Shown one piece after another: positions 1 through 18,518 of a stretch of DNA of 64,000 bases. Under the pieces are notes generated by a model. The model saw only the letters and a list, made by a program, of their open reading frames with translations, was not told where the DNA came from and ran no database searches. Every line of letters starts with the position of its first letter. Position 1 is the stretch's first letter. A program made the translations under genes and the position numbers. This DNA is from Escherichia coli (GTDB lineage: Bacteria > Pseudomonadota > Gammaproteobacteria > Enterobacterales > Enterobacteriaceae), in the NCBI RefSeq assembly GCF_003991155.1, contig NZ_CP031293.1; one strand, given 5' to 3'.

Positions 1-567
1 AGCACTTTTTCTGATCCAAAGAACTAGTAAAACTGGTAACAGGCCTATAAAAAAAGAGTTTCTCCATCCATATACTTCAGCAAACTGAGGGATTATTTGT
101 GCCGCAATAATATTTCCAACAGAAAAACCACTTACCAAAAAAGCACTAGCTTTAGATTGAAGATTTTTAGGCCAACTTTCTACTGCATAAGTTGAAGCAC
201 ATGCATATTCACCAGACATCCCTAAGCCAACAATAAAACGGCAAACTGCGAGCATATATAAGTTTGTAGCAATACCGCTAAGGCCTGTTCCGACTGAGTA
301 AATGATAATTGCCCACATCATCATTGGCTTACGCCCATATTTATCAGCCATGGCACCAAAAAAACCGCCCCCAATAGGTCTGGCTATGAAGGCCACTGTC
401 CCTATTAAAGTGGCCTGAATATCCGTAATGCCAAGATCTGCTTTTATAATATGAAGAATGTAAAATATCATCATAAAATCAAAGCCATCAAATACATATC
501 CAAGCCATGCAGAAAAAAGAGCTTTCCGTTGTGGTGGATTAACTTGTTTATACCATACTGTTGCCAT
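1..567 (-). CDS. yjhB: MFS transporter, NanT paralogue (YjhB/NanX-like sialic acid family); N-terminal 189 codons only, gene runs off the window start
   Basis: Reverse-strand ORF starting ATG at 565-567 (MATVWYKQVNPPQRKALFSAWLGYVFDGFDFMMIF...); RBS AGGAAAC upstream; closely resembles the NanT/YjhB N-terminus; NanR operator upstream. Confidence 0.75.
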   Translation of the reverse strand, partial: MATVWYKQVNPPQRKALFSAWLGYVFDGFDFMMIFYILHIIKADLGITDIQATLIGTVAFIARPIGGGFFGAMADKYGRKPMMMWAIIIYSVGTGLSGIATNLYMLAVCRFIVGLGMSGEYACASTYAVESWPKNLQSKASAFLVSGFSVGNIIAAQIIPQFAEVYGWRNSFFIGLLPVLLVLWIRKSA

Positions 568-977
568 ATTTGTTTCCTGTGTTATTCTAATACAGCCCTT
601 AAAGTAAATATTAGGGAGCCTCAACAATATCCAGCAATAATTATATTGTCTTCAAATACGCCAGTACTATTAATTGTTATCAATACCTAATCAGTACAAT
701 CTTTTTCTCCATTTCTTCTTAACATATTTCACGCTATGAAAGATAAAACTGATACCCACCTTCAGTTTTGGGTCACCATCAAAAAAAATGTTCGCCAGAT
801 ATTCCACCACTGGCACAGTTCAACCCTGCTTCAAAAATTGACTTATTCATTGTGCTCATTTTCGTAGTCCGTTCAGGTTGAATAAAACTCCCTTAGTCAA
901 ATGAGGAAAGACTGAGAGGTTATTACTTTAGCTTACGTTATAGCTGTTTTCCTTTGCAGTATTTCTTTGCTTTTCTG

Positions 978-1000
978 TATACCTTTATACCTGTTATACC
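978..1000 (-). promoter_or_regulatory. NanR operator: three GGTATA repeats (GGTATAACAGGTATAAAGGTATA on the minus strand)
   Basis: Plus strand reads TATACCTTTATACCTGTTATACC, the exact reverse complement of the nan operator; lies about 410 bp upstream of the transporter start. Confidence 0.7.
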
Positions 1001-1596
1001 AGATCAAAAAACAAGCAATCCACATAACAAAACGCGTTTTGTTACTGATGTCACAAATTGAGCATATTTTTGTATCTGATAGTTTGTTACAAACACCACA
1101 ACCAAGATGCCTATTTCGTTTCAGCATCAACTGTTAAATTATCTGGTTGCCAACGAGAATACTGAGCTTTTTTGTCCCTAAGACTGACCGTCAACGCAAC
1201 AATCTTTGACTGTTTGACATTGTCATGCCCGCAGGCCAGCGGATCTAAAGACATCAGACTGCTTGCATCAGCCAGTTGCGTATCTGGCTATGTCCCTTAA
1301 TTGGTAAGGGTTCGAGGAACTCAACATTAACGCATTTTTCAGCGCATCACCGACAGTGTATATGAACGATTGCACTCTGACGATGGTTGATTTATTTGGT
1401 TGCATAGGGGCTAGCTAGTCTGGTACCGGAGGCTGGATCTGAAGTACTGACCCTAGGAATAACGCCGGGCTGACTCATATTCTGACCCATTGTCAGCCCG
1501 CGTGTTTACTGCTCTAGCTCATTTCCTGTTGTCAGGCATTCAATTCCCAACTGCAGGTTATGGCCCGGTGAGCGAACACCTGACGGCAGGTATCAC

Positions 1597-1779: not shown

Positions 1780-3642
1780 GCAGTGCGTCAGCGGGCGGCA
1801 GTTTTACCTGGGGTGCTGGCAGAGGTGGTTATGGCAGCGCCAGCCGCGATAATATCCACAGCAACTATGATTCCGTTAATGAGCAGAGCGGTATTTTCGC
1901 AGGCCGGGGTTATTTTGATATCACTGTGGGGAATCACACTCAGCTCGATGGTGCGGTGATTGCTTCGACAGCACCTGCCGACAGGAACTCGCTGGACACC
2001 GGTACTCTGGGCTGGTCGGATATCCATAACCAGGCAGACTATAAAGCCAGCTATACCGGAATCAGTTTATCGGGTGGCTCAGGGATGTCAGCCAGCCAGA
2101 TGGTGGCCTCAAATGCAATAGCCGGTGCGGCGAACGCACTTACCGGTATGTCCGGCAGCAGTGGACATGCTGAAGGTACCACGTCATCCGCCATCAGCGG
2201 CGGAAATCTCATTATCCGTGATAAGGAGAGTCAGAAGCAGGATATTGCCGGGCTCAGCCGGGACCCGGAAAACGCCAACGGCAGCATTGCACCGATATTT
2301 GACAAGGAGAAAGAACAGAAGCGTCTGCAGGAAGCGCAGGTTATCAGCCAGATTAGCGGTCAGATGAGTAATATCGTAATGACGTATGGCGAAACTGAAG
2401 CGATGAAAGCAGCCTGGAAAGAGCATCCTGGCATGAGCGATGCACAGTTGCGGGAGACTCCGGAATACAGAGAGGTCATGAAAGGCTACGGTACGGGCAG
2501 TTCGCCGCAGATGGTGGTACAGGCCATCACGGGCGTGCTGGGCGGACTGAATGCAGGGAACCCGGGGCAGGTATTGGCGGGCGGTCTGAATCCGGCAGTG
2601 GCACAGCTTATAAAACAGTCCACCGGCGATAACCGGGAAGCAAACCTGATGGCTCACGCAGTCTGGGGTGCACTTGCCGCACAACTGGGCGGAAACAATG
2701 CGGCTTCCGGTGCTGCTGGGGCATTCAGTGGTGAACTTGCAGCCTGGTATATCATTGATAACTACTACGGTGGTCGTACCGATAACCTGAGTGAACAGGA
2801 ACGTCAGCAAATCAGCATGCTGGCCACCATTGCCTCTGGTATTGCGGGGGGACTTGCAGGCAACAGTACGGCGTCTGCCGGTACGGGTGCACAGGCAGGA
2901 ACTCGGCTGAAAACAATATGCTGAACGTGATAGCCACTGAAACAGCAGCTAATACGGCAGCAGCAATAGCTGGTGCTACAGGTAATGCCAGTAAGGATAC
3001 CGGGAATGATAATAGCTGGGATACCGGTGGTGTTACGCTGGCTACGGGAACAGTGTGCTGTACGTGATCCGAGTCGCGATGGCACCCGAGGACCGGGGCA
3101 TGTGCTGAATGGCGACAATACAGACGGAAACAAACAGCCGAATCTGGGCAAAGACGTAGCGAGCGCAACGGATAAGGATAAAGCTGAGCTTGGTGGTGCA
3201 GGTGCTGGAATACCGGGGGGGATGGGGACCGGATAATGAAGAAAAAGCCCGTCATCAGGAGGTTCAGCAACAACGATTTGATGAACTGAGTAAAATATAT
3301 GATAAAAGTCACCCGGCCGGAGAGTTAACGGTGGATGGGCAGACTATCAGGCAGAGTTCGGTAAGTAACCGTTATGGTACGACGAAAGTGTTTGAAAGCC
3401 AGACTTTGACGGATAAACAGATCCACAATTACGCACAGCAACTGGCAGGCGATACACCGCTGAAAGAGGTAAAATCGGGAATCTACACGTCTAAACTATC
3501 AGATGGTTCGGTAATAACACTTAGAAACATATCTACATCAGAAGGTCAGACAGGCGCTCGTTGGACTATAGATATTCGTAATAACCAAAAGCTTACTGAA
3601 CTGGGGAATAAATATTCACGTGTGGAGATTAAGTTCAAATGA
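1780..3642 (+). pseudogene. cdiA: Orphan cdiA-CT module 1: 5-prime-truncated CdiA fragment with C-terminal toxin domain, interrupted by at least two frameshifts
   Basis: ORF 1668..2924 encodes a Gly/Ala-rich CdiA pretoxin region; (A)ENN motif at 2906..2917 is in a different frame; toxin ORF 3190..3642 in a third frame; homopolymer G7 at 3214..3220; left end abuts the IS66 remnant. Confidence 0.7.
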
Positions 3643-3995
3643 TTACTGAGTTAAGTGAAAGAGAATACAAGGAGTTGACAGACGCTGCAGAGGGACAGAC
3701 TCTTGATGCTATTTTGTGTTATTCAGTTCCTGATATTCACCCTGCAGAGTTTAGTTTTGCAGATAGAAGAGAAATCTTTTTTTGGGCATTAACCCGTCTT
3801 CTGAAAGAAGGGCGTATCAAACTCGCCAAGCACGGTAAGTTTTTGGAAGGAAGTGTTGACGAGCAGGTTGAGCGTTTTCGACAGGCATTTCCGAAAACAG
3901 AAGAAGAGATGGAAGACGGTATCTGGTTTTTTGATGAGAGTTGTCCGGGGGGGGCTGTTTGGGTGCTTGAAGATGGCTCTCTCGAATGGACCTGA
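3639..3995 (+). CDS. cdiI: CdiI-type immunity protein for module 1 (118 aa, intact)
   Basis: Start overlaps the toxin stop (ATGA at 3639-3642); small acidic AT-rich ORF immediately 3-prime of a CdiA-CT domain. Confidence 0.65.
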
Positions 3996-5112
3996 TAACC
4001 CCTTCACAGCGCAGGATGCGGCGCAGCGAGCGTATAACAACGATATGGCGGCCTCAGTTTTTGGTACCGGAGGGAACGATACAGGCTACAACGGCAGCGG
4101 TACAGGGACTGGCCGGCGGTAATCTGAGTGCAGCCCTGGCAGGTGGTGCAGCACCGTATCTGGCCGAAGTGGTGAAAACCATGACCACAGACCCGGTTAC
4201 CGGTGAGGTGAATAAGGCTGCAAATGTGGCTGCTCATGCCGTGGTGAATGCCGCACTGGCTGTGGCACAGGGAAATAACGCTCTTGCCGGTGCTGTAGGT
4301 GCAGCCACCGGCGAGGTGGTGGGAATGATAGCCACACAGATGTACGGTAAGCCGGTGAGTGAACTGAGCGAGACAGAGAAGCAGACGGTCTCGACACTGG
4401 CAACGGTTGCTGCTGGCCTGGCCGGTGGTCTGGTGGGCGACTCGGGGCTTCAGCGGTAGCCGGCGCACAGTCAGGTAAGACGACTGTTGAGAATAATTTA
4501 CTTGGCGGTAGTGAAGATGCTCAGGCTGCGTGGATACGCCAGCATGGTATCGACATGGCAACATGTGCAGAAAACCCTTCTGGTGCCGCCTGCCAGAAAG
4601 CAATGAATGAGAGGGATGCTGTAGGGCTGGCTCTGGCAACAGGTACAGTGGCACTACTCCCCGGTAGTGCTCAGGCTGTGTGGGGACTGGGAGCAAGTGC
4701 GAATGCTGGTATCAGTTATCTGGCTGATGGTACTGTAGATCCGACAAACGCAGCCATTGCAGGCTGGGTGAATGTGTTCAGCATGGGTAATGGCCTGGCG
4801 GGGACTGTGGGCTGGAATGCGGCAGGTGGTGCGCTGGGTAACTGGATTGACAACAAAGATCCTCTGTCTGGTGCAATTTCAAATGGTATCGGTTCTGCTG
4901 CCGGGTATGGTATCGGTAAAGGTATTACTTGGGGGACAGATAATATTACGAATGCTGTAGGAAAATGGGTGACAAATGGCTGGGATCCTAAGTACGATCC
5001 AACATGGATAAAATATGCTGAAGTAAATCGTAACGATATCATTCGAGAAGGCATGAAACCGAGCAATGTTCTTGGAACTGCTGGAGATATTGGCGGTTCT
5101 ATAGGATCCTAG
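3986..5112 (+). pseudogene. cdiA: Orphan cdiA-CT module 2: CdiA pretoxin fragment, VENN motif, Gly-rich C-terminal toxin domain; frameshifted; no immunity ORF downstream
   Basis: ORF 3986..4459 (..[10 protein letters not shown]..) then frame change; GKTTVENNLLGG at 4474..4506 (VENN 4486..4497) in frame with ORF 4555..5112; nothing coding in 5113..5230. Confidence 0.7.
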
Positions 5113-5230
5113 CTAGGTGGAAAAGTAACTTAGTCTGCAAGGATCAGGAGTTACAGACGGCATTGGCTTTACGCTTACCGTTTTTTTACGCGCCAGAACA
5201 AGACTATGATAGCGTTGCCCTTATAGACGA

Positions 5231-5644
5231 TCACATTATCGTCCACTCCGACTTTGCGCAACTACTGTAGAGTGGTGTACTCCGCGGCTTCTTTGAGGAT
5301 CTCAACTTCCATGTTTTTTTACCCAGCAAGGGCTGTAACTCTTTTATTTTTATAGCGGCAGCCAGTTCTGAGGCAGGAACAACATCCTCTCCGGTAGTAA
5401 CAGCAGCGAGACTTCCTTCCAGGTATTGTTTTTTCCACTTAAACAACAGACTGGGCTGAATACCATGCAAATGCGCCACATGGGACACCCTCATGCCAGG
5501 CTCCGTTGTCTGCTGAATAATGGCAATTTTTTCCTGAGGAGTTTTACGTTTACGAAGCTCCTGCCCCAGCAAAGTTCCAGTTATCTCAAAATTAGAACTA
5601 GTGTTAGACATATATCCAAGCCTATCTCTTATTTTAAGATACAT
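5231..5644 (-). mobile_element. IS transposase OrfA-like HTH protein (IS66/IS3-type accessory protein), solitary, with a frame change at an A7 run
   Basis: ..[78 protein letters not shown] then out of frame; a -1 shift at the A7 run (plus-strand T7 at 5315..5321) restores the conserved ending [16 protein letters not shown]; no cognate transposase ORF adjacent. Confidence 0.6.
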
Positions 5645-5671
5645 CCACTGTCTGGCGTTTCAAGGGGCGCT

Positions 5672-6049
5672 TCAAGTTTTTTCAGACAGTTGAACTAGTA
5701 TACCAATACATTCTTGTTCAGCATCAATGATACATGCTTGGTATGTCGGGAAAAAAACAGAGGTTTCTTTTACAATATATCCACAATCATAACATTGATA
5801 CCATTTCCAGCCTTTTTCCTGAATATAGGAAATATGTAGAAAAAGTGGCAAGACCGATTCGTCTGAGTATCCCTGTTTTTTAGCATTTTCAATGCATAAC
5901 AATTGCGAATTATATGCGTTATCTGATTGAGACAAAAGATATCCATTTTTCTCATGACAATACCATCTCCATTTATTGTCATCAGTCTTATAAAATTTCC
6001 ATATTAATCTCTGATTTCCAGATATCTTATAAATCATAATATACTCCAC
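5672..6049 (-). CDS. Hypothetical protein (125 aa), AT-rich; weak resemblance to DUF1508/YegP-type repeat
   Basis: Intact ORF; sequence KFYKTDDNKWRWYCHEKNGYLLSQSDNAYNSQLLCIENAKKQG loosely resembles the YegP-family motif; no function assignable. Confidence 0.4.
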   Translation of the reverse strand: MEYIMIYKISGNQRLIWKFYKTDDNKWRWYCHEKNGYLLSQSDNAYNSQLLCIENAKKQGYSDESVLPLFLHISYIQEKGWKWYQCYDCGYIVKETSVFFPTYQACIIDAEQECIGILVQLSEKT

Positions 6050-6079
6050 TCCCCAAGGAGACGGCCCTGGGGAAGGTAA

Positions 6080-7444
6080 TCAGTGTTCTTTTATATATGC
6101 GGCTCTGTGACGTTCAAGTTCAATTGCACCACGATGTGATAACCAGCAGAAAATGATGCAACAAATAATACCGCAGCCAAGAAGATAAAATCCGCCATGC
6201 CAGCCAATATGATCGACCATAATACCAAACAGGCTGGTGCCCAGAGACGCACCGAAGATATAGCTCATAAAACCGCGTAAGCCTACTGCAGAACCAACAG
6301 CAAAGCTGGGAACGATCTCCATAGTCTGAACGGAAGCCAGAAATTGTGGAACGTAAATCAGGCAACCAACAATGGCAGCAAAAATTGTCACCATAAACAG
6401 CGATTCACTTTTCCAGTAGCCAATCAGGCAAATGAAAATCAGCGCCATACAAATCATCGCCAATGGCATACGACGCCCTTTAAACAGTTTGTCTGACAAC
6501 CAACCGGCAAGTAGCGTGGAAGGGATTGCGGCCCATTCAAAAAATAAAAACGCGACGCTCATTTGTTCTTTAGAAAAATGTTTCACCGTCAGCAGATAAA
6601 TAGGCAACCAGCTAATCATCCCGAAGCGTACCATGTATACAAATACGTCAACCAGTGAGACATACCAGGCATTTTTATTGCGTAATACATAAGTGCAGAA
6701 AATCTGAAAGGCACTCATGTTTTCTGGTGCTTTTACCGTCTGTCGGGTATTCAGGACGACTTTTTCTTCCGGCATCATCTCTTCCAGAGAGGGTAGACCT
6801 TCCTGACGTGGGGAACCTTTACCGAGAATCAGCACAATTACCGCAAAAACGATGGCCACGCAGGCCGGAACGATATAGCTCGCACTTTGCCAGTGCTCGC
6901 TGCCGAGTAGGGCAAAAGCGGCACCAACAATGGGTGCAACAATACCACCACCGACGTTATGAGAGATATTCCAGAAAGCACCAACCCGACCACGCTCCCG
7001 GCGAGGGAACCAGTTAGCAATAGTGATGAAAGAAGGACCAACGCCCATTCCCTGGAAAAGACCATTCAGAATAACCAATACCGCAAAAATCCAGAATGCG
7101 GTGCTGAATCCCAGGCCAACGTTAACGATGGCACATAACACCAGCCCACACGCCATAAAGACTTTCGGACTGGCTTTATCGGCAAGGCTACTCATCACTC
7201 CTTTGCTGATACCATAGGCGATAAGCATACAGCTACTCAGTACGCCAATTTGTGTGGCGCTGAGATCTAATTGCTCTTTAAGATAAGGCGTCGATAAGGT
7301 GAAATTATTACGCACGATATAGTATGCAAGATACCCCAGAAATACACTAAGTAACGCCTGCATACGATAGCGACGATATGTCACCTGAATTTTCTCCGCC
7401 GGAACACTATCCGCCGCTTGCCCCGTTTTAAATATTGATAACAT
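6080..7444 (-). CDS. pgtP: Phosphoglycerate transporter PgtP (organophosphate:phosphate antiporter, UhpT/GlpT family)
   Basis: 454-aa ORF with 12-TM MFS features and close match to remembered Salmonella PgtP; divergent from pgtCBA. Confidence 0.85.
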   Translation of the reverse strand: MLSIFKTGQAADSVPAEKIQVTYRRYRMQALLSVFLGYLAYYIVRNNFTLSTPYLKEQLDLSATQIGVLSSCMLIAYGISKGVMSSLADKASPKVFMACGLVLCAIVNVGLGFSTAFWIFAVLVILNGLFQGMGVGPSFITIANWFPRRERGRVGAFWNISHNVGGGIVAPIVGAAFALLGSEHWQSASYIVPACVAIVFAVIVLILGKGSPRQEGLPSLEEMMPEEKVVLNTRQTVKAPENMSAFQIFCTYVLRNKNAWYVSLVDVFVYMVRFGMISWLPIYLLTVKHFSKEQMSVAFLFFEWAAIPSTLLAGWLSDKLFKGRRMPLAMICMALIFICLIGYWKSESLFMVTIFAAIVGCLIYVPQFLASVQTMEIVPSFAVGSAVGLRGFMSYIFGASLGTSLFGIMVDHIGWHGGFYLLGCGIICCIIFCWLSHRGAIELERHRAAYIKEH

Positions 7445-11066: not shown

Positions 11067-12303
11067 TGAATATTCGATTCTGCTGATTGATGATGATGCA
11101 GATGTGCTGGACGCCTACACACAGTTACTTGAACAGTCAGGCTATCGGGTTTTTGCCTGTAACAATCCTTTTGAGGCGCAGGCGTGGATACAACCAGACT
11201 GGCCAGGCATTGTGCTAAGTGATGTGTGTATGCCTGGCTGCTCTGGTATCGATTTGATGATGTTATTCCACCAGGATGATCAACAGATCCCCATTCTGCT
11301 TATCACCGGGCACGGCGACGTGCCAATGGCAGTTGATGCGGTAAAAAAAGGCGCGTGGGATTTTTTGCAAAAACCGGTTGATCCCGGCAAATTGCTTTCT
11401 CTGGTTGAAGAGGCGCTACGCCAGCGTCAATCAATCATTGCGCGTCGTCAGTATTGCCAACAGACATTGCAGGTGGAGTTGATAGGGAGAAGTGAATGGA
11501 TAAATCAGTATCGGCGACGTTTACAGCAGTTGTCTGAGACAGATATTGCCGTCTGGCTCTACGGTGCCCCTGGCACAGGACGGATGACCGGTGCACGTTA
11601 TCTGCACCAATTTGGACGTAATGCACAAGGCGAATTTGTCTACCGCGAGCTGACACCAGACAATGCACCACAGCTTAATGATTTCATTGCGCTGGCTCAG
11701 GGGGGAACATTAGTGCTCAGCCATCCTGAACACCTGACGCGTGAACAGCAGTACCATCTGGTTCAGTTACAAAGCCAGGAACACAGACCTTTTCGCCTGA
11801 TTGGTATTGGAGACACCTCGCTGGTCGAGCTGGCCGCCAGCAACCATATCATCGCGGAGCTCTATTACTGCTTTGCAATGACACAAATCGCTTGCCTGCC
11901 ATTAACTCAACGCCCCGACGATATTGAACCACTGTTTCGCCACTACCTTTGTAAGGCATGTCAACGGCTTAACCATCCTGTTCCGGAAGTGGGAAAAGAG
12001 ATGCTCAAAGAGATGATGCGCCGCATGTGGCCAAATAATGTGCGAGAGCTGGCCAATGCAGCAGAACTGTTTACTGTAGGAATATTACCGCTGGCAGAAA
12101 CAGCAAACCCGTTGATGCACGTCGGAACCCCGGCACCGCTTGACAGGCGAGTGGAGGACGCTGAGCGACAGATAATCACAGAGGCGCTTAATATCCATCA
12201 GGGGCGTATCAATGAGGTTGCTGAATATTTACAAATCCCACGGAAAAAACTCTATCTCAGAATGAAAAAATACGGTCTTAGTAAGGAGCATTATAAAATT
12301 TAA
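11047..12303 (+). CDS. pgtA: PgtA, NtrC-family (sigma-54-dependent type) response regulator
   Basis: Receiver domain (LLIDDD...D), AAA+ central domain (GAPGTGR), C-terminal HTH; overlaps pgtB by 20 nt. Confidence 0.85.
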   Translation: MWKMLSSEYSILLIDDDADVLDAYTQLLEQSGYRVFACNNPFEAQAWIQPDWPGIVLSDVCMPGCSGIDLMMLFHQDDQQIPILLITGHGDVPMAVDAVKKGAWDFLQKPVDPGKLLSLVEEALRQRQSIIARRQYCQQTLQVELIGRSEWINQYRRRLQQLSETDIAVWLYGAPGTGRMTGARYLHQFGRNAQGEFVYRELTPDNAPQLNDFIALAQGGTLVLSHPEHLTREQQYHLVQLQSQEHRPFRLIGIGDTSLVELAASNHIIAELYYCFAMTQIACLPLTQRPDDIEPLFRHYLCKACQRLNHPVPEVGKEMLKEMMRRMWPNNVRELANAAELFTVGILPLAETANPLMHVGTPAPLDRRVEDAERQIITEALNIHQGRINEVAEYLQIPRKKLYLRMKKYGLSKEHYKI

Positions 12304-13951: not shown

Positions 13952-15523
13952 ATGGACACCTCACTTGCTCATGAGAACGCCCGCCTGCGGGCACTGTTGC
14001 AGGCGCAACAGGACACCATCCGCCAGATGGCCGAATACAATTGCCTGCTCTCACAGCGGGTGGCGGCTTATGCTTCTGAAATCAACCGGCTGAAGGCGCT
14101 GGTTGCAAAACTGCAGCGCATGCAGTTCGGTAAAAGCTCAGAAAAACTTCGCGCAAAAACCGAACGACAGATACAGGAAGCACAGGAGCGAATCAGCGCA
14201 CTTCAGGAAGAAATGGCGGAAACACTGGGTGAGCAATATGACCCGGCACTGCCATCTTCCCTGCGCCAGTCTTCAGCCCGTAAACCGTTACCGGCTGCAC
14301 TTCCCCGTGAATCCCGGGTTATCCGGCCGGAAGAGGAATGCTGCCCGGCTTGTGGTGGCGAACTCAGTTCTCTGGGATGTGATGTGTCAGAGCAACTGGA
14401 GCTTATCAGCAGCGCCTTTAAGGTTATCGAAACACAACGTCCGAAACTGGCCTGTTGCCGGTGCGACCATATCGTGCAGGCACCAGTACCTTCAAAACCC
14501 ATTGCACGCAGTTATGCCGGAGCGGGGCTTCTGGCTCATATCGTCACCGGGAAGTATGCAGACCATCTGCCGTTATACCGCCAGTCAGAAATATACCGTC
14601 GTCAGGGCGTGGAACTGAGCCGCGCCACGCTGGGGCGCTGGACCAGTGCCGTTGCTGAACTGCTGGAGCCGCTGTATGACGTGCTGCGCCAGTATGTGCT
14701 GATGCCCGGTAAAGTCCATGCGGATGATATCCCCGTTCCGGTCCAGGAGCCGGGCAGTGGTAAAACAAGAACTGCCCGGCTGTGGGTTTACGTCCGTGAT
14801 GACCGTAACGCCGGTTCACAGATGCCCCCGGCGGTCTGGTTCGCGTACAGCCCGGACCGGAAAGGTATCCATCCACAGAATCACCTGGCCGGTTACAGCG
14901 GTGTGCTTCAGGCCGATGCTTACGGTGGTTACCGGGCGTTATACGAATCCGGCAGAATAACGGAAGCCGCGTGTATGGCCCATGCCCGGAGAAAAATCCA
15001 CGATGTGCATGCAAGAGCGCCTACCGATATCACCACGGAAGCCCTGCAGCGTATCGGTGAACTGTATGCAATCGAGGCAGAGGTCCGGGGATGTTCAGCA
15101 GAACAGCGTCTGGCGGCAAGAAAAGCCAGAGCTGCGCCACTGATGCAGTCGTTGTACGACTGGATACAGACTCAGATGAAAACACTGTCGCGTCACTCGG
15201 ATACGGCAAAAGCGTTCGCATACCTGCTGAAACAGTGGGGTGGCCTGAACGTGTACTGCAGTAATGGCTGGGTGGAAATCGACAACAACATCGCAGAGAA
15301 CGCCTTACGGGGAGTAGCCGTAGGCCGGAAAAACTGGCTGTTCGCAGGTTCCGACAGCGGTGGTGAACATGCGGCGGTGTTGTACTCGCTGATCGGCACA
15401 TGTCGTCTGAACAATGTGGAGCTAGAAAAGTGGCTGCGCTACGTCATTGAGCATATCCAGGACTGGCCGGCAAACCGGGTACGCGATCTGTTGCCCTGGA
15501 AAGTTGATCTGAGCTCTCAGTAA
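13952..15523 (+). CDS. tnpC: IS66-family transposase TnpC
   Basis: 523-aa ORF with N-terminal leucine zipper, CxxC zinc ribbon (CPACGG) and DDE domain. Confidence 0.85.
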
Positions 15524-15873
15524 ATATCAATACGGTTCTGACGAGCCGCTTACCCTTTAAAAAGGTATAGGTATATAACAGTAATATCTGATCGTAACGG
15601 ACGGACGCTGGAATTAACCGATGACCGCAGCACAGAGAGTAGGGGATGCGGACGGTCAAAGATCGCGGCGTTGGATTTTATAAATCTGTCTCCAGTAGTA
15701 GATGAACTGAATACAAAGTTGCCAGAGAGTGGTCTGTCAGGCAGGGAATCAGAAACTGGATATTATTGACTGGTACATTGTGTCGGGCTGTGTACGTTCT
15801 CCCCGGACAGACAGTCTCAGTTCGTAGAATCTATAAATTACTGCTACTGATGCTGCCGGGGAAAGGCGTAACG

Positions 15874-15910
15874 AAAAAACAGCCTCCGTTACCGGACAGC
15901 AAGGAGGCTG
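15874..15910 (-). terminator. Intrinsic terminator-like hairpin (CAGCCTCC / GGAGGCTG stem followed by T6 on the minus strand), about 190 bp downstream of papI
   Basis: Inverted repeat and U-tract read from sequence. Confidence 0.4.
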
Positions 15911-16101
15911 AATGGAGTTTACAGGATTTGCTTTTTTATAATGTCTGGCCATGCAGTAAAACCGGACAGGTTTTATTATCATGTGAGGTATTCTGACATA
16001 AAATGCTGGATTTTTATTTTGTGACGAATGCTGCAAAATTGAATCTGCACTCTGATGTAACTTTTATCTGTTTCAGTGAAGCATGCCCACAAATTGAGTT
16101 A

Positions 16102-16335
16102 TTAAGTTGTGGAAGAACAGTTTTGTCCCGCCTGCATCTCTCCTTTCAAAAACCAGTATGTTGCCATGCCTCGCCTTAATGGAGAGCGCTGAACCACACC
16201 TTCTTTTTCCAGTAATAACAGGTAATAGCGTGCCTGATAATCCGTTACCGCCAGCGCCTCCGCAATTTCTGCGGTTTTCCCTCCATTATGCCTGTTCAGA
16301 AATTCCAGTATTTCATTCTTCATATATTCACTCAT
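16102..16335 (-). CDS. papI: PapI, pap phase-variation regulator
   Basis: 77-aa [65 protein letters not shown]... matches PapI; divergent from papB. Confidence 0.95.
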
Positions 16336-16528
16336 CTCACTGTAACAAAGTTTCTTCGAATAATAAAAATCATGCTCTCTGTTATCAACGGAAAGGTATT
16401 TTTATTCTCTATGTTTGCTTTATTTGTGAAATTTAGTGAATTTGCTTTTTGTTGGCTTTATTTGATGTGTATCACATTTTGTGTGTTATTTTTCTGTGAA
16501 AAGAAAGTCCGTAAAAATGCATTTAGAC

Positions 16529-16634
16529 GATCTTTTATGCTGTAAATTCAATTCACCATGATGTTTTTATCTGAGTGTATTCTTGTTGTTGGTGTTTTAT
16601 TCTGGTTTGATTTTGTTTTGTGGGTTAAAAGATC
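16529..16634. promoter_or_regulatory. pap phase-variation switch: distal GATC (16529..16532) and proximal GATC (16631..16634), 102 bp apart, in the papI/papB intergenic region
   Basis: Two GATC sites in the expected contexts (GACGATCTTTTA and AAAGATCGTTTA) at the canonical spacing. Confidence 0.85.
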
Positions 16635-16739
16635 GTTTAAATCAATATTTACAACATAAAAAACTAAATTTAACTTATTGCGTGAAGAGTATTTCAGGGC
16701 CGGAAGCATATATCCAGGGGCCCGACAGAAGGGGGAAAC

Positions 16740-17054
16740 ATGGCGCATCATGAAGTCATCAGTCGGTCAGGAAATGCGTTTTTGCTGAATATACGCGAGA
16801 GCGTACTGTTGCCCGGCTCTATGTCTGAAATGCATTTTTTTTTACTGATAGGTATTTCTTCTATTCACAGTGACAGGGTCATTCTGGCTATGAAGGACTA
16901 TCTGGTAGGTGGGCACTCCCGTAAGGAGGTCTGCGAGAAATACCAGATGAATAATGGGTATTTCAGTACAACACTGGGGAGACTTATACGGCTGAATGCT
17001 CTTGCAGCAAGGCTTGCACCTTATTATACAGATGAGTCGTCGGCATTTGACTAA
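16740..17054 (+). CDS. papB: PapB transcriptional regulator
   Basis: 104-aa ORF MAHHEVISRSGNAFLLNIRESVLLPGS... matches PapB. Confidence 0.95.
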   Translation: MAHHEVISRSGNAFLLNIRESVLLPGSMSEMHFFLLIGISSIHSDRVILAMKDYLVGGHSRKEVCEKYQMNNGYFSTTLGRLIRLNALAARLAPYYTDESSAFD

Positions 17055-17261
17055 ATTATGGCATTCCGGAGTTTCTGGAAGATAAAAAAAGAAGTCCTTA
17101 TCAGAAAGCAGACAGGTTATATCAGTATTCTGTCGATAAATAACCTGCCCTGAAAATACGAGAATATTATTTGTATTGATCTGGTTATTAAAGGTAATCG
17201 GGTCATTTTAAATTGCCAGATATCTCTGGTGTGTTCAGTAATGAAAAAGAGGTTGTTATTT

Positions 17262-17810
17262 ATGATTAAGTCGGTTATTGCCGGTGCGGTAGCTATGGCA
17301 GTGGTGTCTTTTGGTGTAAATGCTGCTCCAACTACTCCACAGGGGCAGGGTAGAGTAACCTTTAACGGAACTGTTGTTGATGCTCCATGCAGCATTTCTC
17401 AGAAATCAGCTGATCAGTCTATTGATTTTGGACAGCTTTCAAAAAGCTTCCTTGAGGCAGGAGGTACATCCAAGCCAATGGATTTAGATATTGAGTTAGT
17501 AAATTGCGATATTACAGCTTTTAAACAAGGTCAACCAGCTAAAAACGGTAAGGTTCAATTATCTTTTACTGGGCCACAAGTAACGGGGCAGACTGAAGAA
17601 TTAGCAACTAACGGCGGTACGGGCACAGCTATTGTAGTTCAGGCTGCAGGCAAAAACGTTTCTTTCGATGGGACTGCAGGTGACGCTTATCCCCTGAAAG
17701 ATGGTGATAATGTTCTTCATTATACAGCTCTTGTGAAAAAAGCGAATGGCGGTACTGTTTCTGAAGGTGCTTTTTCTGCAGTTGCAACCTTTAATTTAAG
17801 TTACCAGTAA
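17262..17810 (+). CDS. papA: PapA major P-pilus subunit
   Basis: Start at MIKSVIAGAVAMAVVSFGVNA (signal peptide); pilin C-terminal motif; ORF track start 17229 is probably an upstream in-frame Met. Confidence 0.9.
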   Translation: MIKSVIAGAVAMAVVSFGVNAAPTTPQGQGRVTFNGTVVDAPCSISQKSADQSIDFGQLSKSFLEAGGTSKPMDLDIELVNCDITAFKQGQPAKNGKVQLSFTGPQVTGQTEELATNGGTGTAIVVQAAGKNVSFDGTAGDAYPLKDGDNVLHYTALVKKANGGTVSEGAFSAVATFNLSYQ

Positions 17811-17872
17811 TTCATCTGATTTTTACAGGGTGAGGCAAGACCCACCCTGTGTCTGACAACGACATTTAAGGT

Positions 17873-18460
17873 ATGAAGAATTTTTGTGTTCTGTTTGTGA
17901 TGTATTTCTGGAGTACATTACTTCATGCTGTATCTTCAGAGCCATTTCCTCCGCCCGGCATGTCCCTTCCTGAATACTGGGGAGAAGAACACGTATGGTG
18001 GGATGGCAGGGCTACTTTTCATGGTGAGGTTGTCAGACCTGCCTGTACTCTGGCGATGGAAGACGCCTGGCAGATTATTGATATGGGGGAAACCCCGGTA
18101 CGGGATTTACAGAATGGTTTCTCCGGACCTGAAAGAAAATTCAGCCTCCGGCTCAGGAATTGTGAATTTAACAGTCAGGGTGGGAACCTTTTCTCTGATT
18201 CCCGGATAAGGGTGACTTTCGATGGCGTCCGGGGTGAAACGCCGGATAAGTTTAATTTATCCGGTCAGGCAAAAGGAATTAATCTGCAGATAGCTGATGC
18301 CAGGGGAAATATTGCCCGGGCAGGGAAAGTAATGCCTGCAATACCATTGACGGGTAATGAAGAAGCGCTGGATTACACCCTCAGAATTGTGAGAAACGGA
18401 AAAAAACTTGAAGCCGGAAATTATTTTGCTGTGCTGGGATTCCGGGTCGATTATGAGTGA
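17873..18460 (+). CDS. papH: PapH pilus terminator/anchor subunit
   Basis: 195-aa ORF matching PapH (..PFPPPGMSLPEYWGEEHVWWDGRA..). Confidence 0.9.
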   Translation: MKNFCVLFVMYFWSTLLHAVSSEPFPPPGMSLPEYWGEEHVWWDGRATFHGEVVRPACTLAMEDAWQIIDMGETPVRDLQNGFSGPERKFSLRLRNCEFNSQGGNLFSDSRIRVTFDGVRGETPDKFNLSGQAKGINLQIADARGNIARAGKVMPAIPLTGNEEALDYTLRIVRNGKKLEAGNYFAVLGFRVDYE

Positions 18461-18518
18461 GTCACTCCGGTGAGATGTCCGGTTATTTATCTTTTTTGTG
18501 AATCTGGTGATGCGTGGA

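What the first reader, a model, noticed from the sequence alone, without database searches (positions are those of the whole stretch)
16336..16739. Intact pap epigenetic phase-variation switch
The papI/papB intergenic region has the two GATC sites at the canonical 102-bp spacing with intact papI and papB, so this P-fimbrial operon should be phase-variable through Dam/Lrp/PapI. The operon is complete from papI to papX with no frameshifts, unlike the neighbouring toxin modules.
Basis: partly seen in the sequence, partly recalled or inferred. Interest (0 to 1): 0.35.

Follow-up and report, generated by a model that had tools for sequence, protein, structure and literature searches.

The report
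Standard P-fimbria on/off methylation switch
This is the well-known DNA-methylation switch that turns P fimbriae on and off in uropathogenic E. coli. It is intact here, but it is ordinary and found in about a quarter of sequenced E. coli genomes.

Summary
Window 16336-16739 is exactly the 404-bp gap between papI (16102-16335, minus strand) and papB (16740-17054, plus strand). It holds only two GATC sites, at 16529 and 16631, 102 bp apart. Each lies in an identical, inverted 11-mer, ACGATCTTTTA.

A CRP-like site, both divergent promoters and the T-rich PapB-site region are in the positions described for pap. All twelve genes from papI to papX are full length. PapG is the class III allele.

The window is E. 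coli FDAARGOS_1284 apart from two SNPs. The regulatory gap matches 1,244 of 5,426 complete E. coli genomes and is 95% identical to both CFT073 pap switches, with the GATC boxes unchanged.

Methylation states and switching cannot be shown from sequence, and dam and lrp lie outside the window.

Nothing here is new: this is a textbook system. "Intact" still carries some information. About half of the papB-carrying genomes hold a papB frameshifted in a T9 run, and the window keeps T9 in frame. Interest is low.

The parts
16102..16335 (-). papI. A 77-aa winged-helix co-regulator that, by established knowledge, redirects Lrp to the distal sites.
   Evidence: ORF. Pfam FaeA family E=3e-31, full-length match. 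Matches the PapI NMR structure 2HTJ at E=1e-42 with 4 substitutions. 93.5% identical to CFT073 P1 PapI. PGAP names the identical protein WP_000006211.1 PapI.
16360..16388 (-). papI promoter: -35 TTGATA (16388-16383), 17-nt spacer, -10 TATTAT (16365-16360). The implied start is near 16353.
   Evidence: Best sigma-70-like match in the region, 10 of 12. The implied start lies 115.5 bp from the centre of the CRP-like site. That this matches the published geometry rests on my own knowledge.
16389..16455 (.). T-rich region of about 9-bp periodicity between the papI promoter and the CRP site. It is the expected high-affinity PapB site 1 and includes the nonamer CTATGTTTG (16409-16417).
   Evidence: [quoted passage not shown] Other E. 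coli copies carry 1-4 extra copies of CTGTGTTTG inserted at 16408/16409. Binding here is inferred, not tested.
16461..16476 (.). CRP(CAP)-like site TTTGATGTGTATCACA, centre 16468.5.
   Evidence: Located. It lies 60 bp upstream of the distal GATC, as described for pap (PMC9820224), and 215.5 bp from the inferred papBA start. One variable position (16467) among 10 aligned copies.
16511..16537 (.). Distal GATC box (Lrp site 5), with GATC-dist at 16529-16532 inside ACGATCTTTTA (plus strand).
   Evidence: The 20-bp GATC context is identical in all 11 copies. One variable position (16519) in the 27-nt box among 10 aligned copies.
16538..16625 (.). 88-bp interval between the boxes. By the published model it holds the two inner Lrp sites. 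The sequence is variable but the length is constrained.
   Evidence: 26 of the 48 variable positions fall here, yet the GATC spacing stays at 102 bp in 10 of 11 copies and no multi-base indel occurs here. G-N2-3-TTT(T/A) motifs were found at 16560-16569 and 16591-16599. The Lrp site assignment is inferred.
16626..16652 (.). Proximal GATC box (Lrp site 2), with GATC-prox at 16631-16634 inside ACGATCTTTTA (minus strand).
   Evidence: One variable position (16639, in 20KM2222) among 10 aligned copies. Its 3' end overlaps the papBA -35 hexamer.
16648..16684 (+). papBA promoter: -35 TTTACA (16648-16653), 17-nt spacer, -10 TAACTT (16671-16676). The inferred start is near 16684.
   Evidence: Hexamers located. 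No variable position in 16648-16676 among 10 aligned copies. The weak -10 fails the generic scan, as expected for an activator-dependent promoter. The assignment rests on the CRP-site distance and is inferred.
16740..17054 (+). papB. A 104-aa regulator and first gene of the operon. It contains a T9 run at 16835-16843 that is in frame here.
   Evidence: Pfam PapB E=1e-36. 100% identical to PapB of CFT073 P1 and P2. The T8 variant in other genomes truncates PapB.
17262..25176 (+). Structural and assembly genes papA, H, C, D, J, K, E, F, G. PapG is the class III allele.
   Evidence: Coordinates and lengths. Fimbrial subunit, usher and chaperone family hits. PapG_N E=2.5e-111 and PapG_C E=3e-58. 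PGAP label papG-III.
25439..25990 (+). papX. A 183-aa MarR-family regulator at the operon end.
   Evidence: Pfam MarR E=3.6e-11. 100% identical to CFT073 PapX, same accession WP_001298062.1.

Best explanation
The region is the canonical regulatory switch of a P-fimbrial (pap) operon with a class III PapG adhesin, on a pheV-tRNA pathogenicity island of E. coli.

The mechanism below is taken from the established pap model and is inferred here by homology.
- OFF state: Lrp binds cooperatively to the three promoter-proximal sites, centred on the proximal GATC box at 16626-16652, which overlaps the papBA -35 element. This blocks RNA polymerase and shields GATC-prox from Dam, while the free GATC-dist is methylated.
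- Switching ON: after replication, PapI (16102-16335) raises Lrp affinity for the ACGATC-containing distal box (16511-16537). Lrp-PapI moves to the distal sites and shields GATC-dist. Dam then methylates GATC-prox, which prevents Lrp from returning.
- Activation: with CRP-cAMP at 16461-16476, the papBA promoter (start near 16684) fires. PapB then binds the T-rich region next to the papI promoter and raises papI transcription. This closes a positive loop that makes the ON state heritable.

Shown here: the presence, position, orientation and conservation of every cis element, and intact papI, papB and the rest of the operon.

Inferred: protein binding, methylation patterns and actual switching.
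For: - Two GATC sites 102 bp apart are the only ones in the gap.
- Both lie in inverted exact copies of ACGATCTTTTA, unique in the window, within a 27-nt inverted repeat.
- PapI-family and PapB-family ORFs are divergent and full length.
- A CRP-like site lies 60 bp upstream of GATC-dist, and the promoters fit the published geometry (PMC9820224; PMC11316696).
- The gap is 95.0-95.3% identical to CFT073 P1 and P2, with identical GATC contexts and identical PapB.
- Among 10 aligned copies the two boxes each have one variable position, while the 88 bp between them have 26. The spacing nevertheless stays at 102 bp in 10 of 11 copies.
- All 12 genes are intact.
Against: - There is no direct evidence of methylation state or switching for this sequence.
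- dam and lrp are outside the window and were not checked.
- PapI carries four substitutions relative to the solved PapI (E45, V47, M67, N72). Their effect on Lrp binding is unknown.
- The window has the shortest form of the PapB-site region, with no extra nonamer.
- Two positions, 16609 and 16696, differ from all nine other aligned copies. These could change switching rates.
Confidence: 0.9

Rival explanations
1. The switch is structurally intact but strongly biased or effectively locked, most plausibly OFF, in this allele. Possible causes are the PapI variant (E45/V47/M67/N72), the minimal PapB-site region with no extra nonamers, or clade-specific substitutions between the GATC boxes and in the papB leader. 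The operon would then not be usefully phase-variable under normal conditions.
For: - Four PapI substitutions relative to 2HTJ and CFT073.
- The shortest of five length classes of the gap.
- Positions 16609 and 16696 differ from all nine other aligned copies.
- From my own knowledge, CFT073 P1 and P2, which differ by similar small changes, are reported to switch at different rates.
Against: - The elements known to be critical are unchanged: the GATC sites, ACGATC, the boxes, the promoter hexamers, the CRP site and PapB.
- The 404-bp length class is the commonest (38 of 58 sampled full-length records) and is the class of CFT073 P1.
- The same PapI protein (WP_000006211.1) recurs in unrelated bovine, canine and human isolates. 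That argues it is a maintained, functional allele.
Confidence: 0.08
2. The 102-bp GATC pair is a chance arrangement in an AT-rich intergenic region, with no regulatory meaning.
For: A second GATC pair at exactly 102 bp occurs inside pgtA (11278/11380), and about 0.6-1 such pair is expected per exact spacing in this window.
Against: - Exact inverted 11-mers around both GATCs are unique in the window.
- There is a 27-nt inverted repeat.
- The 20-bp GATC contexts are identical in 10 of 11 copies, against a variable background.
- PapI and PapB genes flank the gap.
- The same arrangement occurs next to PapI-like and PapB-like ORFs in Edwardsiella hoshinae.
Confidence: 0.01

Closest known systems
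pap operon P1 of E. coli CFT073 (pheV island) and its papI-papB switch
   Same: - Same chromosomal setting: a pheV tRNA island with the same integrase-side genes.
- Same gene order, papI to papX.
- The same 404-bp gap and the same 102-bp GATC spacing, with identical GATC boxes.
- PapB and PapX are 100% identical, and PapC and PapD are over 99% identical.
   Different: - 20 substitutions in the gap, mostly between the boxes.
- PapI is 93.5% identical.
- PapA is a different serotype variant (63% identical).
- PapG is class III here and class II in CFT073 (58% identical).
- There is no hly cluster between the island end and pap in this window.
pap operon P2 of CFT073 (pheU island)
   Same: Same boxes, same spacing and same PapB. 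PapI shares N17 with the window allele.
   Different: The gap is 422 bp because of two extra CTGTGTTTG nonamers in the PapB-site region. No papX is annotated next to papG in P2.
prs / class III PapG P-related fimbriae (for example strain J96; my own knowledge, not retrieved here)
   Same: A class III PapG adhesin on an otherwise pap-type operon with the same regulatory region.
   Different: Not compared directly.
Other pap-family Dam/Lrp switches (sfa, foc, daa, fae, clp, pef), plus the Edwardsiella hoshinae loci found here
   Same: Two GATC boxes about 102 bp apart, together with a PapI-like and usually a PapB-like regulator (PMC2909390). The Edwardsiella loci L071 and L073 show 103-bp and 102-bp spacing next to FaeA-family and PapB-family ORFs.
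   Different: These control different fimbriae and have divergent box flanks. PefI is reported to act as a repressor (PMC12388093).
agn43 and gtr Dam/OxyR epigenetic switches
   Same: Competition between Dam methylation of GATC sites and a DNA-binding protein gives heritable ON and OFF states (PMC2909390).
   Different: They use OxyR rather than Lrp and PapI, and they have a different number and context of GATC sites. There is no sequence relationship.

Membership tests
pap-type Dam/Lrp/PapI epigenetic phase-variation switch | Two GATC sites in the regulatory gap, 102 bp apart. | tested here: met
   GATC at 16529 and 16631, the only two in the gap. The feature definition comes from PMC2909390.
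pap-type Dam/Lrp/PapI epigenetic phase-variation switch | Each GATC lies in a conserved box that carries ACGATC and a G-N3-TTTT Lrp half-motif, with the two boxes inverted. ACGATC is the PapI-dependent Lrp recognition sequence according to Hernday 2003; this is my own knowledge. | tested here: met
   ACGATCTTTTA at 16527-16537 (plus strand) and 16626-16636 (minus strand). GATCTTTT motifs on opposite strands. A 27-nt inverted repeat. The 20-bp GATC contexts are identical in 10 of 11 E. coli copies.
pap-type Dam/Lrp/PapI epigenetic phase-variation switch | A divergently transcribed PapI-like (FaeA family) gene. | tested here: met
   ORF 16102-16335 on the minus strand, Pfam FaeA E=3e-31. Matches PDB 2HTJ PapI at E=1e-42.
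pap-type Dam/Lrp/PapI epigenetic phase-variation switch | A PapB-family regulator as the first gene of the fimbrial operon. | tested here: met
   ORF 16740-17054, Pfam PapB E=1e-36. 100% identical to CFT073 PapB.
pap-type Dam/Lrp/PapI epigenetic phase-variation switch | The proximal Lrp/GATC box overlaps the main promoter, so that Lrp binding represses it. A CRP site lies upstream of the distal sites. | tested here: met
   The box at 16626-16652 overlaps the -35 TTTACA at 16648-16653. The CRP-like site at 16461-16476 lies 60 bp from GATC-dist (PMC9820224). The promoter assignment is by geometry and homology, not by mapping.
pap-type Dam/Lrp/PapI epigenetic phase-variation switch | Reciprocal methylation of the two GATC sites in ON and OFF cells, with bimodal, heritable expression. 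| not testable with these tools
   This needs methylation-sensitive digestion or 6mA sequencing, plus reporter assays.
pap-type Dam/Lrp/PapI epigenetic phase-variation switch | Dam and Lrp are encoded by the host. | not tested
   Neither gene lies in the 64-kb window. Both are core E. coli genes (my own knowledge).
P fimbriae (pap) chaperone-usher operon, PapG class III | Gene order papI-B-A-H-C-D-J-K-E-F-G(-X), with usher, chaperone, pilin subunits and a PapG adhesin, all intact. | tested here: met
   Family hits. PGAP annotation of the near-identical genome. Lengths, absence of internal stops and identity to CFT073.
P fimbriae (pap) chaperone-usher operon, PapG class III | The PapG allele is class III. 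| tested here: met
   PGAP labels the FDAARGOS_1284 protein, which differs by 2 residues, as papG-III. It is only 58% identical to CFT073 PapG-II. No direct comparison was made with a reference class III sequence.

The most novel reading that the evidence does not exclude
The pap regulatory region may carry a genetic tuning layer on top of the epigenetic switch. Two features suggest it.
- Copy number of a 9-bp unit (CTGTGTTTG, 0-4 extra copies) in the PapB-binding region next to the papI promoter.
- A T9 homopolymer inside papB, whose T8 form truncates PapB.

Either could set or abolish switching rates between lineages, and possibly by slippage within a lineage. On this reading the window shows the minimal-nonamer, in-frame-T9 state. 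The nonamer difference between CFT073 P1 and P2 may already be described in papers I could not retrieve, so even this may not be new.
Probability: 0.1. Interest if true: 0.3.

Novelty: already known. Interest (0 to 1): 0.08.

Why it matters
The pap switch is the founding example of bacterial epigenetic inheritance, and P fimbriae are a classic urovirulence factor. Finding an intact copy therefore predicts that this strain expresses a class III P fimbria in only a subpopulation of cells. That is useful for annotating the strain, but it adds nothing to the understanding of the system.

The context is mildly useful. Roughly half of the papB-carrying complete E. coli genomes hold a frameshifted papB, so "intact" is not a given.

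Tried and rejected
1. Genome-contig scan with CGATCTTTT-N{80,100}-AAAAGATCG. It was meant to test whether the 102-bp spacing is favoured across bacteria.
- The pattern was too permissive for 298 Gb. Roughly 100-200 chance hits are expected.
- The spacing histogram was essentially flat. It cannot be used as a test, and this was my own design error.
- Its only useful by-product was the set of Edwardsiella hoshinae loci.

2. Primary pap papers. Totsika 2008, Holden 2007, Hernday 2002 and van der Woude & Baumler 2004 are not held. The exact published Lrp site boundaries and PapB footprints could not be checked. I therefore do not give an order for the flanking sites 1, 3, 4 and 6.

3. Literature search for ACGATC with PapI and Lrp. 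It returned only unrelated papers.

4. Chance explanation of the 102-bp pair. The spacing alone is not significant, but the box context rules chance out.

5. Rfam scan of 15500-17900. There was no RNA family in the switch itself, and one unrelated hit downstream of papI.

6. Recurrent slippage at the papB T9 run. This was tested with chimeric haplotype queries.
- The T8 form is overwhelmingly one linked allele (651 records).
- Only 13 and 5 records carry the odd haplotypes.
- Two Nissle 1917 assemblies disagree with each other, so homopolymer sequencing error is an equally good explanation for the odd records.

Full report
**1. What is at the coordinates**

Window 16336-16739 is exactly the 404-bp gap between two divergent ORFs.
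- ORF 16102-16335 on the minus strand encodes 77 aa. It matches Pfam FaeA, the PapI family, over its full length (E=3e-31).
- ORF 16740-17054 on the plus strand encodes 104 aa and matches Pfam PapB (E=1e-36).
- The first ORF also matches the solved PapI structure 2HTJ at E=1e-42, with four substitutions.
- The gap is 32% G+C, against 49% for the window.

**2. The GATC pair**

The gap contains only two GATC sites, at 16529 and 16631, 102 bp apart.

The spacing by itself is not statistically remarkable. The window has 190 GATC sites, about 0.6-1 pair is expected at any one exact spacing, and a second 102-bp pair lies inside pgtA at 11278/11380.

The context is what matters.
- Each GATC sits in an exact copy of ACGATCTTTTA, on opposite strands. 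These are the only two copies in 64 kb.
- They lie within a 27-nt inverted repeat that is 85% complementary (16511-16537 and 16626-16652).
- Both therefore carry ACGATC and GATCTTTT (G-N3-TTTT). From my own knowledge of Nou 1995 and Hernday 2003, these are the PapI-dependent and general Lrp recognition features of pap sites 5 and 2.

**3. Other cis elements**

- A CRP-like site, TTTGATGTGTATCACA, lies at 16461-16476. It is 60 bp upstream of the distal GATC, as reviews describe for pap (PMC9820224).
- The papBA promoter has TTTACA (16648-16653), a 17-nt spacer and TAACTT (16671-16676). This puts the start near 16684, which is 215.5 bp from the centre of the CRP site. From my own knowledge that matches the published CAP position of -215.
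- The best generic promoter match in the region is TTGATA-17-TATTAT on the minus strand (16388-16360). It serves as the papI promoter.
- Between the papI promoter and the CRP site lies a T-rich stretch of about 9-bp periodicity. PapB site 1 is reported there (PMC11316696).
- The proximal GATC box overlaps the -35 hexamer. This fits repression of papBA by Lrp bound at the proximal sites.

**4. The operon**

Downstream lie papA, H, C, D, J, K, E, F, G and papX.
- All are full length with no internal stops.
- Their lengths equal CFT073 P1 except for the serotype-variable PapA and one-residue differences in PapF and PapG.
- Family hits fit the expected pilin subunits, usher, chaperone, PapG_N/PapG_C and MarR.
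- PapG is only 58% identical to CFT073 PapG-II. PGAP labels the protein papG-III in the near-identical genome. This is therefore a class III (prs-type) P-fimbrial operon.

**5. Origin and setting**

The whole window equals E. coli FDAARGOS_1284 (NZ_CP070170.1, 756751-820750) apart from two nonsynonymous SNPs in papG.

The operon sits on a pheV-tRNA island.
- The integrase and tRNA-Phe lie at about window 32.2-33.8 kb.
- An IS66 element lies about 580 bp beyond the papI stop codon.
- Further upstream are pgtABCP and orphan VENN-motif toxin fragments. One fragment is annotated as frameshifted and incomplete.

**6. Comparison with known switches**

- The gap matches 1,244 of 5,426 complete E. coli genomes, mostly at 95-99% identity.
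- It is 95.0% identical to the CFT073 P1 gap and 95.3% to P2.
- PapB is identical, and the 20-bp context of each GATC is identical.
- Among 10 aligned copies, 48 positions vary. Of these, 26 lie in the 88 bp between the boxes, and each 27-nt box has one variable position. The papBA -35 to -10 region has none.
- The GATC spacing is 102 bp in 10 of 11 copies. One bovine isolate has 101 bp.
- All multi-base length variation lies outside the inter-GATC interval.

The literature gives exactly this as the family signature: two GATC boxes at 102 bp plus a PapI-like protein (PMC2909390).

**7. Mechanism**

The mechanism is the established pap model, applied here by homology (summarised in PMC11316696; PMC4546395; PMC9820224).
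- OFF: Lrp on proximal sites 1-3 blocks papBA and protects GATC-prox from Dam, while GATC-dist is methylated.
- ON: PapI shifts Lrp to distal sites 4-6, GATC-prox becomes methylated and blocks Lrp from returning, and CRP and PapB activate transcription. PapB also raises papI expression, which gives a self-sustaining ON state.

The cis elements and the intact regulators are shown here. Binding, methylation and switching are inferred. dam and lrp were not checked because they lie outside the window.

**8. Rivals**

- A biased or locked switch. This could arise from the PapI allele (E45, V47, M67, N72), the minimal PapB-site region, or the two positions that differ from all nine other aligned copies (16609, 16696). 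It cannot be excluded, but it is unlikely. The critical elements are unchanged, the 404-bp form is the commonest, and the same PapI protein recurs in unrelated isolates.
- Chance. This is excluded by the box context and its conservation.

**9. Side observations**

- Nonamer copy number. The gap comes in lengths of 404, 413, 422, 431 and 440 bp. The difference is 0-4 extra copies of the nonamer CTGTGTTTG at 16408/16409, in the PapB-site region.
- papB homopolymer. papB contains a T9 run at 16835-16843. A T8 form truncates PapB in DA33135 and AVS0754.
  - Exact-match counts give 651 records with the T8 allele (with linked SNPs) and 636 records with the window's T9 80-mer.
  - Only 13 and 5 records carry the recombinant haplotypes.
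  - Two Nissle 1917 assemblies disagree with each other.
  - So about half of the papB-carrying genomes have a broken papB. It is mostly one inherited allele, and the few odd cases may be sequencing error.
- Edwardsiella hoshinae carries four loci with the same inverted boxes at 102-103 bp. Of the three examined, two lie next to PapB-family ORFs, and one of those (L071) also has a PapI-family ORF.
- Rfam family AS-pc02 matches 15773-15949 on the minus strand, downstream of papI. I did not follow it up.

**10. Verdict**

The feature is a textbook system, present in about a quarter of complete E. coli genomes and identical to a deposited genome. Novelty: already known. Interest: low.

Noticed in passing
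window 16835-16843 (papB nt 96-104); related loci L011 and L012: papB contains a T9 homopolymer, which is in frame here. A T8 form frameshifts and truncates PapB in other E. coli. At least one exact copy of the T8 allele (with linked SNPs G66/T74) is present in 651 complete-genome records, against 636 records with the window's T9 80-mer. Chimeric haplotypes are rare (13 and 5 records), and two Nissle 1917 assemblies disagree. The T8 form is therefore mostly one inherited allele, and slippage cannot be told from sequencing error for the rest.
   Followed up: partly
window 16408/16409; loci L005-L009: The papI-papB gap occurs in lengths of 404, 413, 422, 431 and 440 bp. The cause is 0-4 extra copies of the nonamer CTGTGTTTG in the presumed PapB site 1 region. 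The window and CFT073 P1 have the shortest form, and CFT073 P2 has two extra copies.
   Followed up: partly
locus L010 (E. coli CE0026a, bovine), positions 594 and 695: One sampled pap switch has a 101-bp rather than a 102-bp GATC spacing, because of a single-base deletion in a T run just upstream of the proximal box. Its papI and papB are annotated as intact.
   Followed up: no
window 15773-15949 (minus strand): Rfam AS-pc02 (RF02876, 'antisense to pHK01_099') matches at 53 bits (gathering score 40, E=1.6e-11). It lies in the 580-bp stretch between the IS66 element and the 3' end of papI.
   Followed up: no
window 24485 and 24652 (papG codons 106 and 162): These are the only two differences between the 64-kb window and E. 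coli FDAARGOS_1284. Both are nonsynonymous changes in the PapG class III receptor-binding domain: R106 v K and N162 v D.
   Followed up: partly
loci L070-L073 (Edwardsiella hoshinae NBRC 105699): Four loci carry inverted CGATCTTTT / AAAAGATCG boxes with 102-103 bp GATC spacing. In L071 the pair lies between a FaeA/PapI-family ORF (303-515, minus strand) and a PapB-family ORF (941-1270, plus strand). L073 has a PapB-family ORF next to the pair.
   Followed up: partly
window about 1926-6200: There are orphan VENN-motif (contact-dependent-inhibition type) toxin C-terminal modules with small downstream ORFs (one of them DUF596). One module is annotated as frameshifted and incomplete. They are followed by the pgtP and pgtCBA phosphoglycerate transport genes, which also flank pap P2 in CFT073.
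   Followed up: no
window 16240-16274 (inside papI): A terminator-like hairpin on the plus strand, CCGCAATTTCTGCGG followed by TTTT (16260-16274), lies antisense to papI. It overlaps papI nt 74-96, the segment reported to pair with the sRNA PapR (PMC4546395).
   Followed up: no
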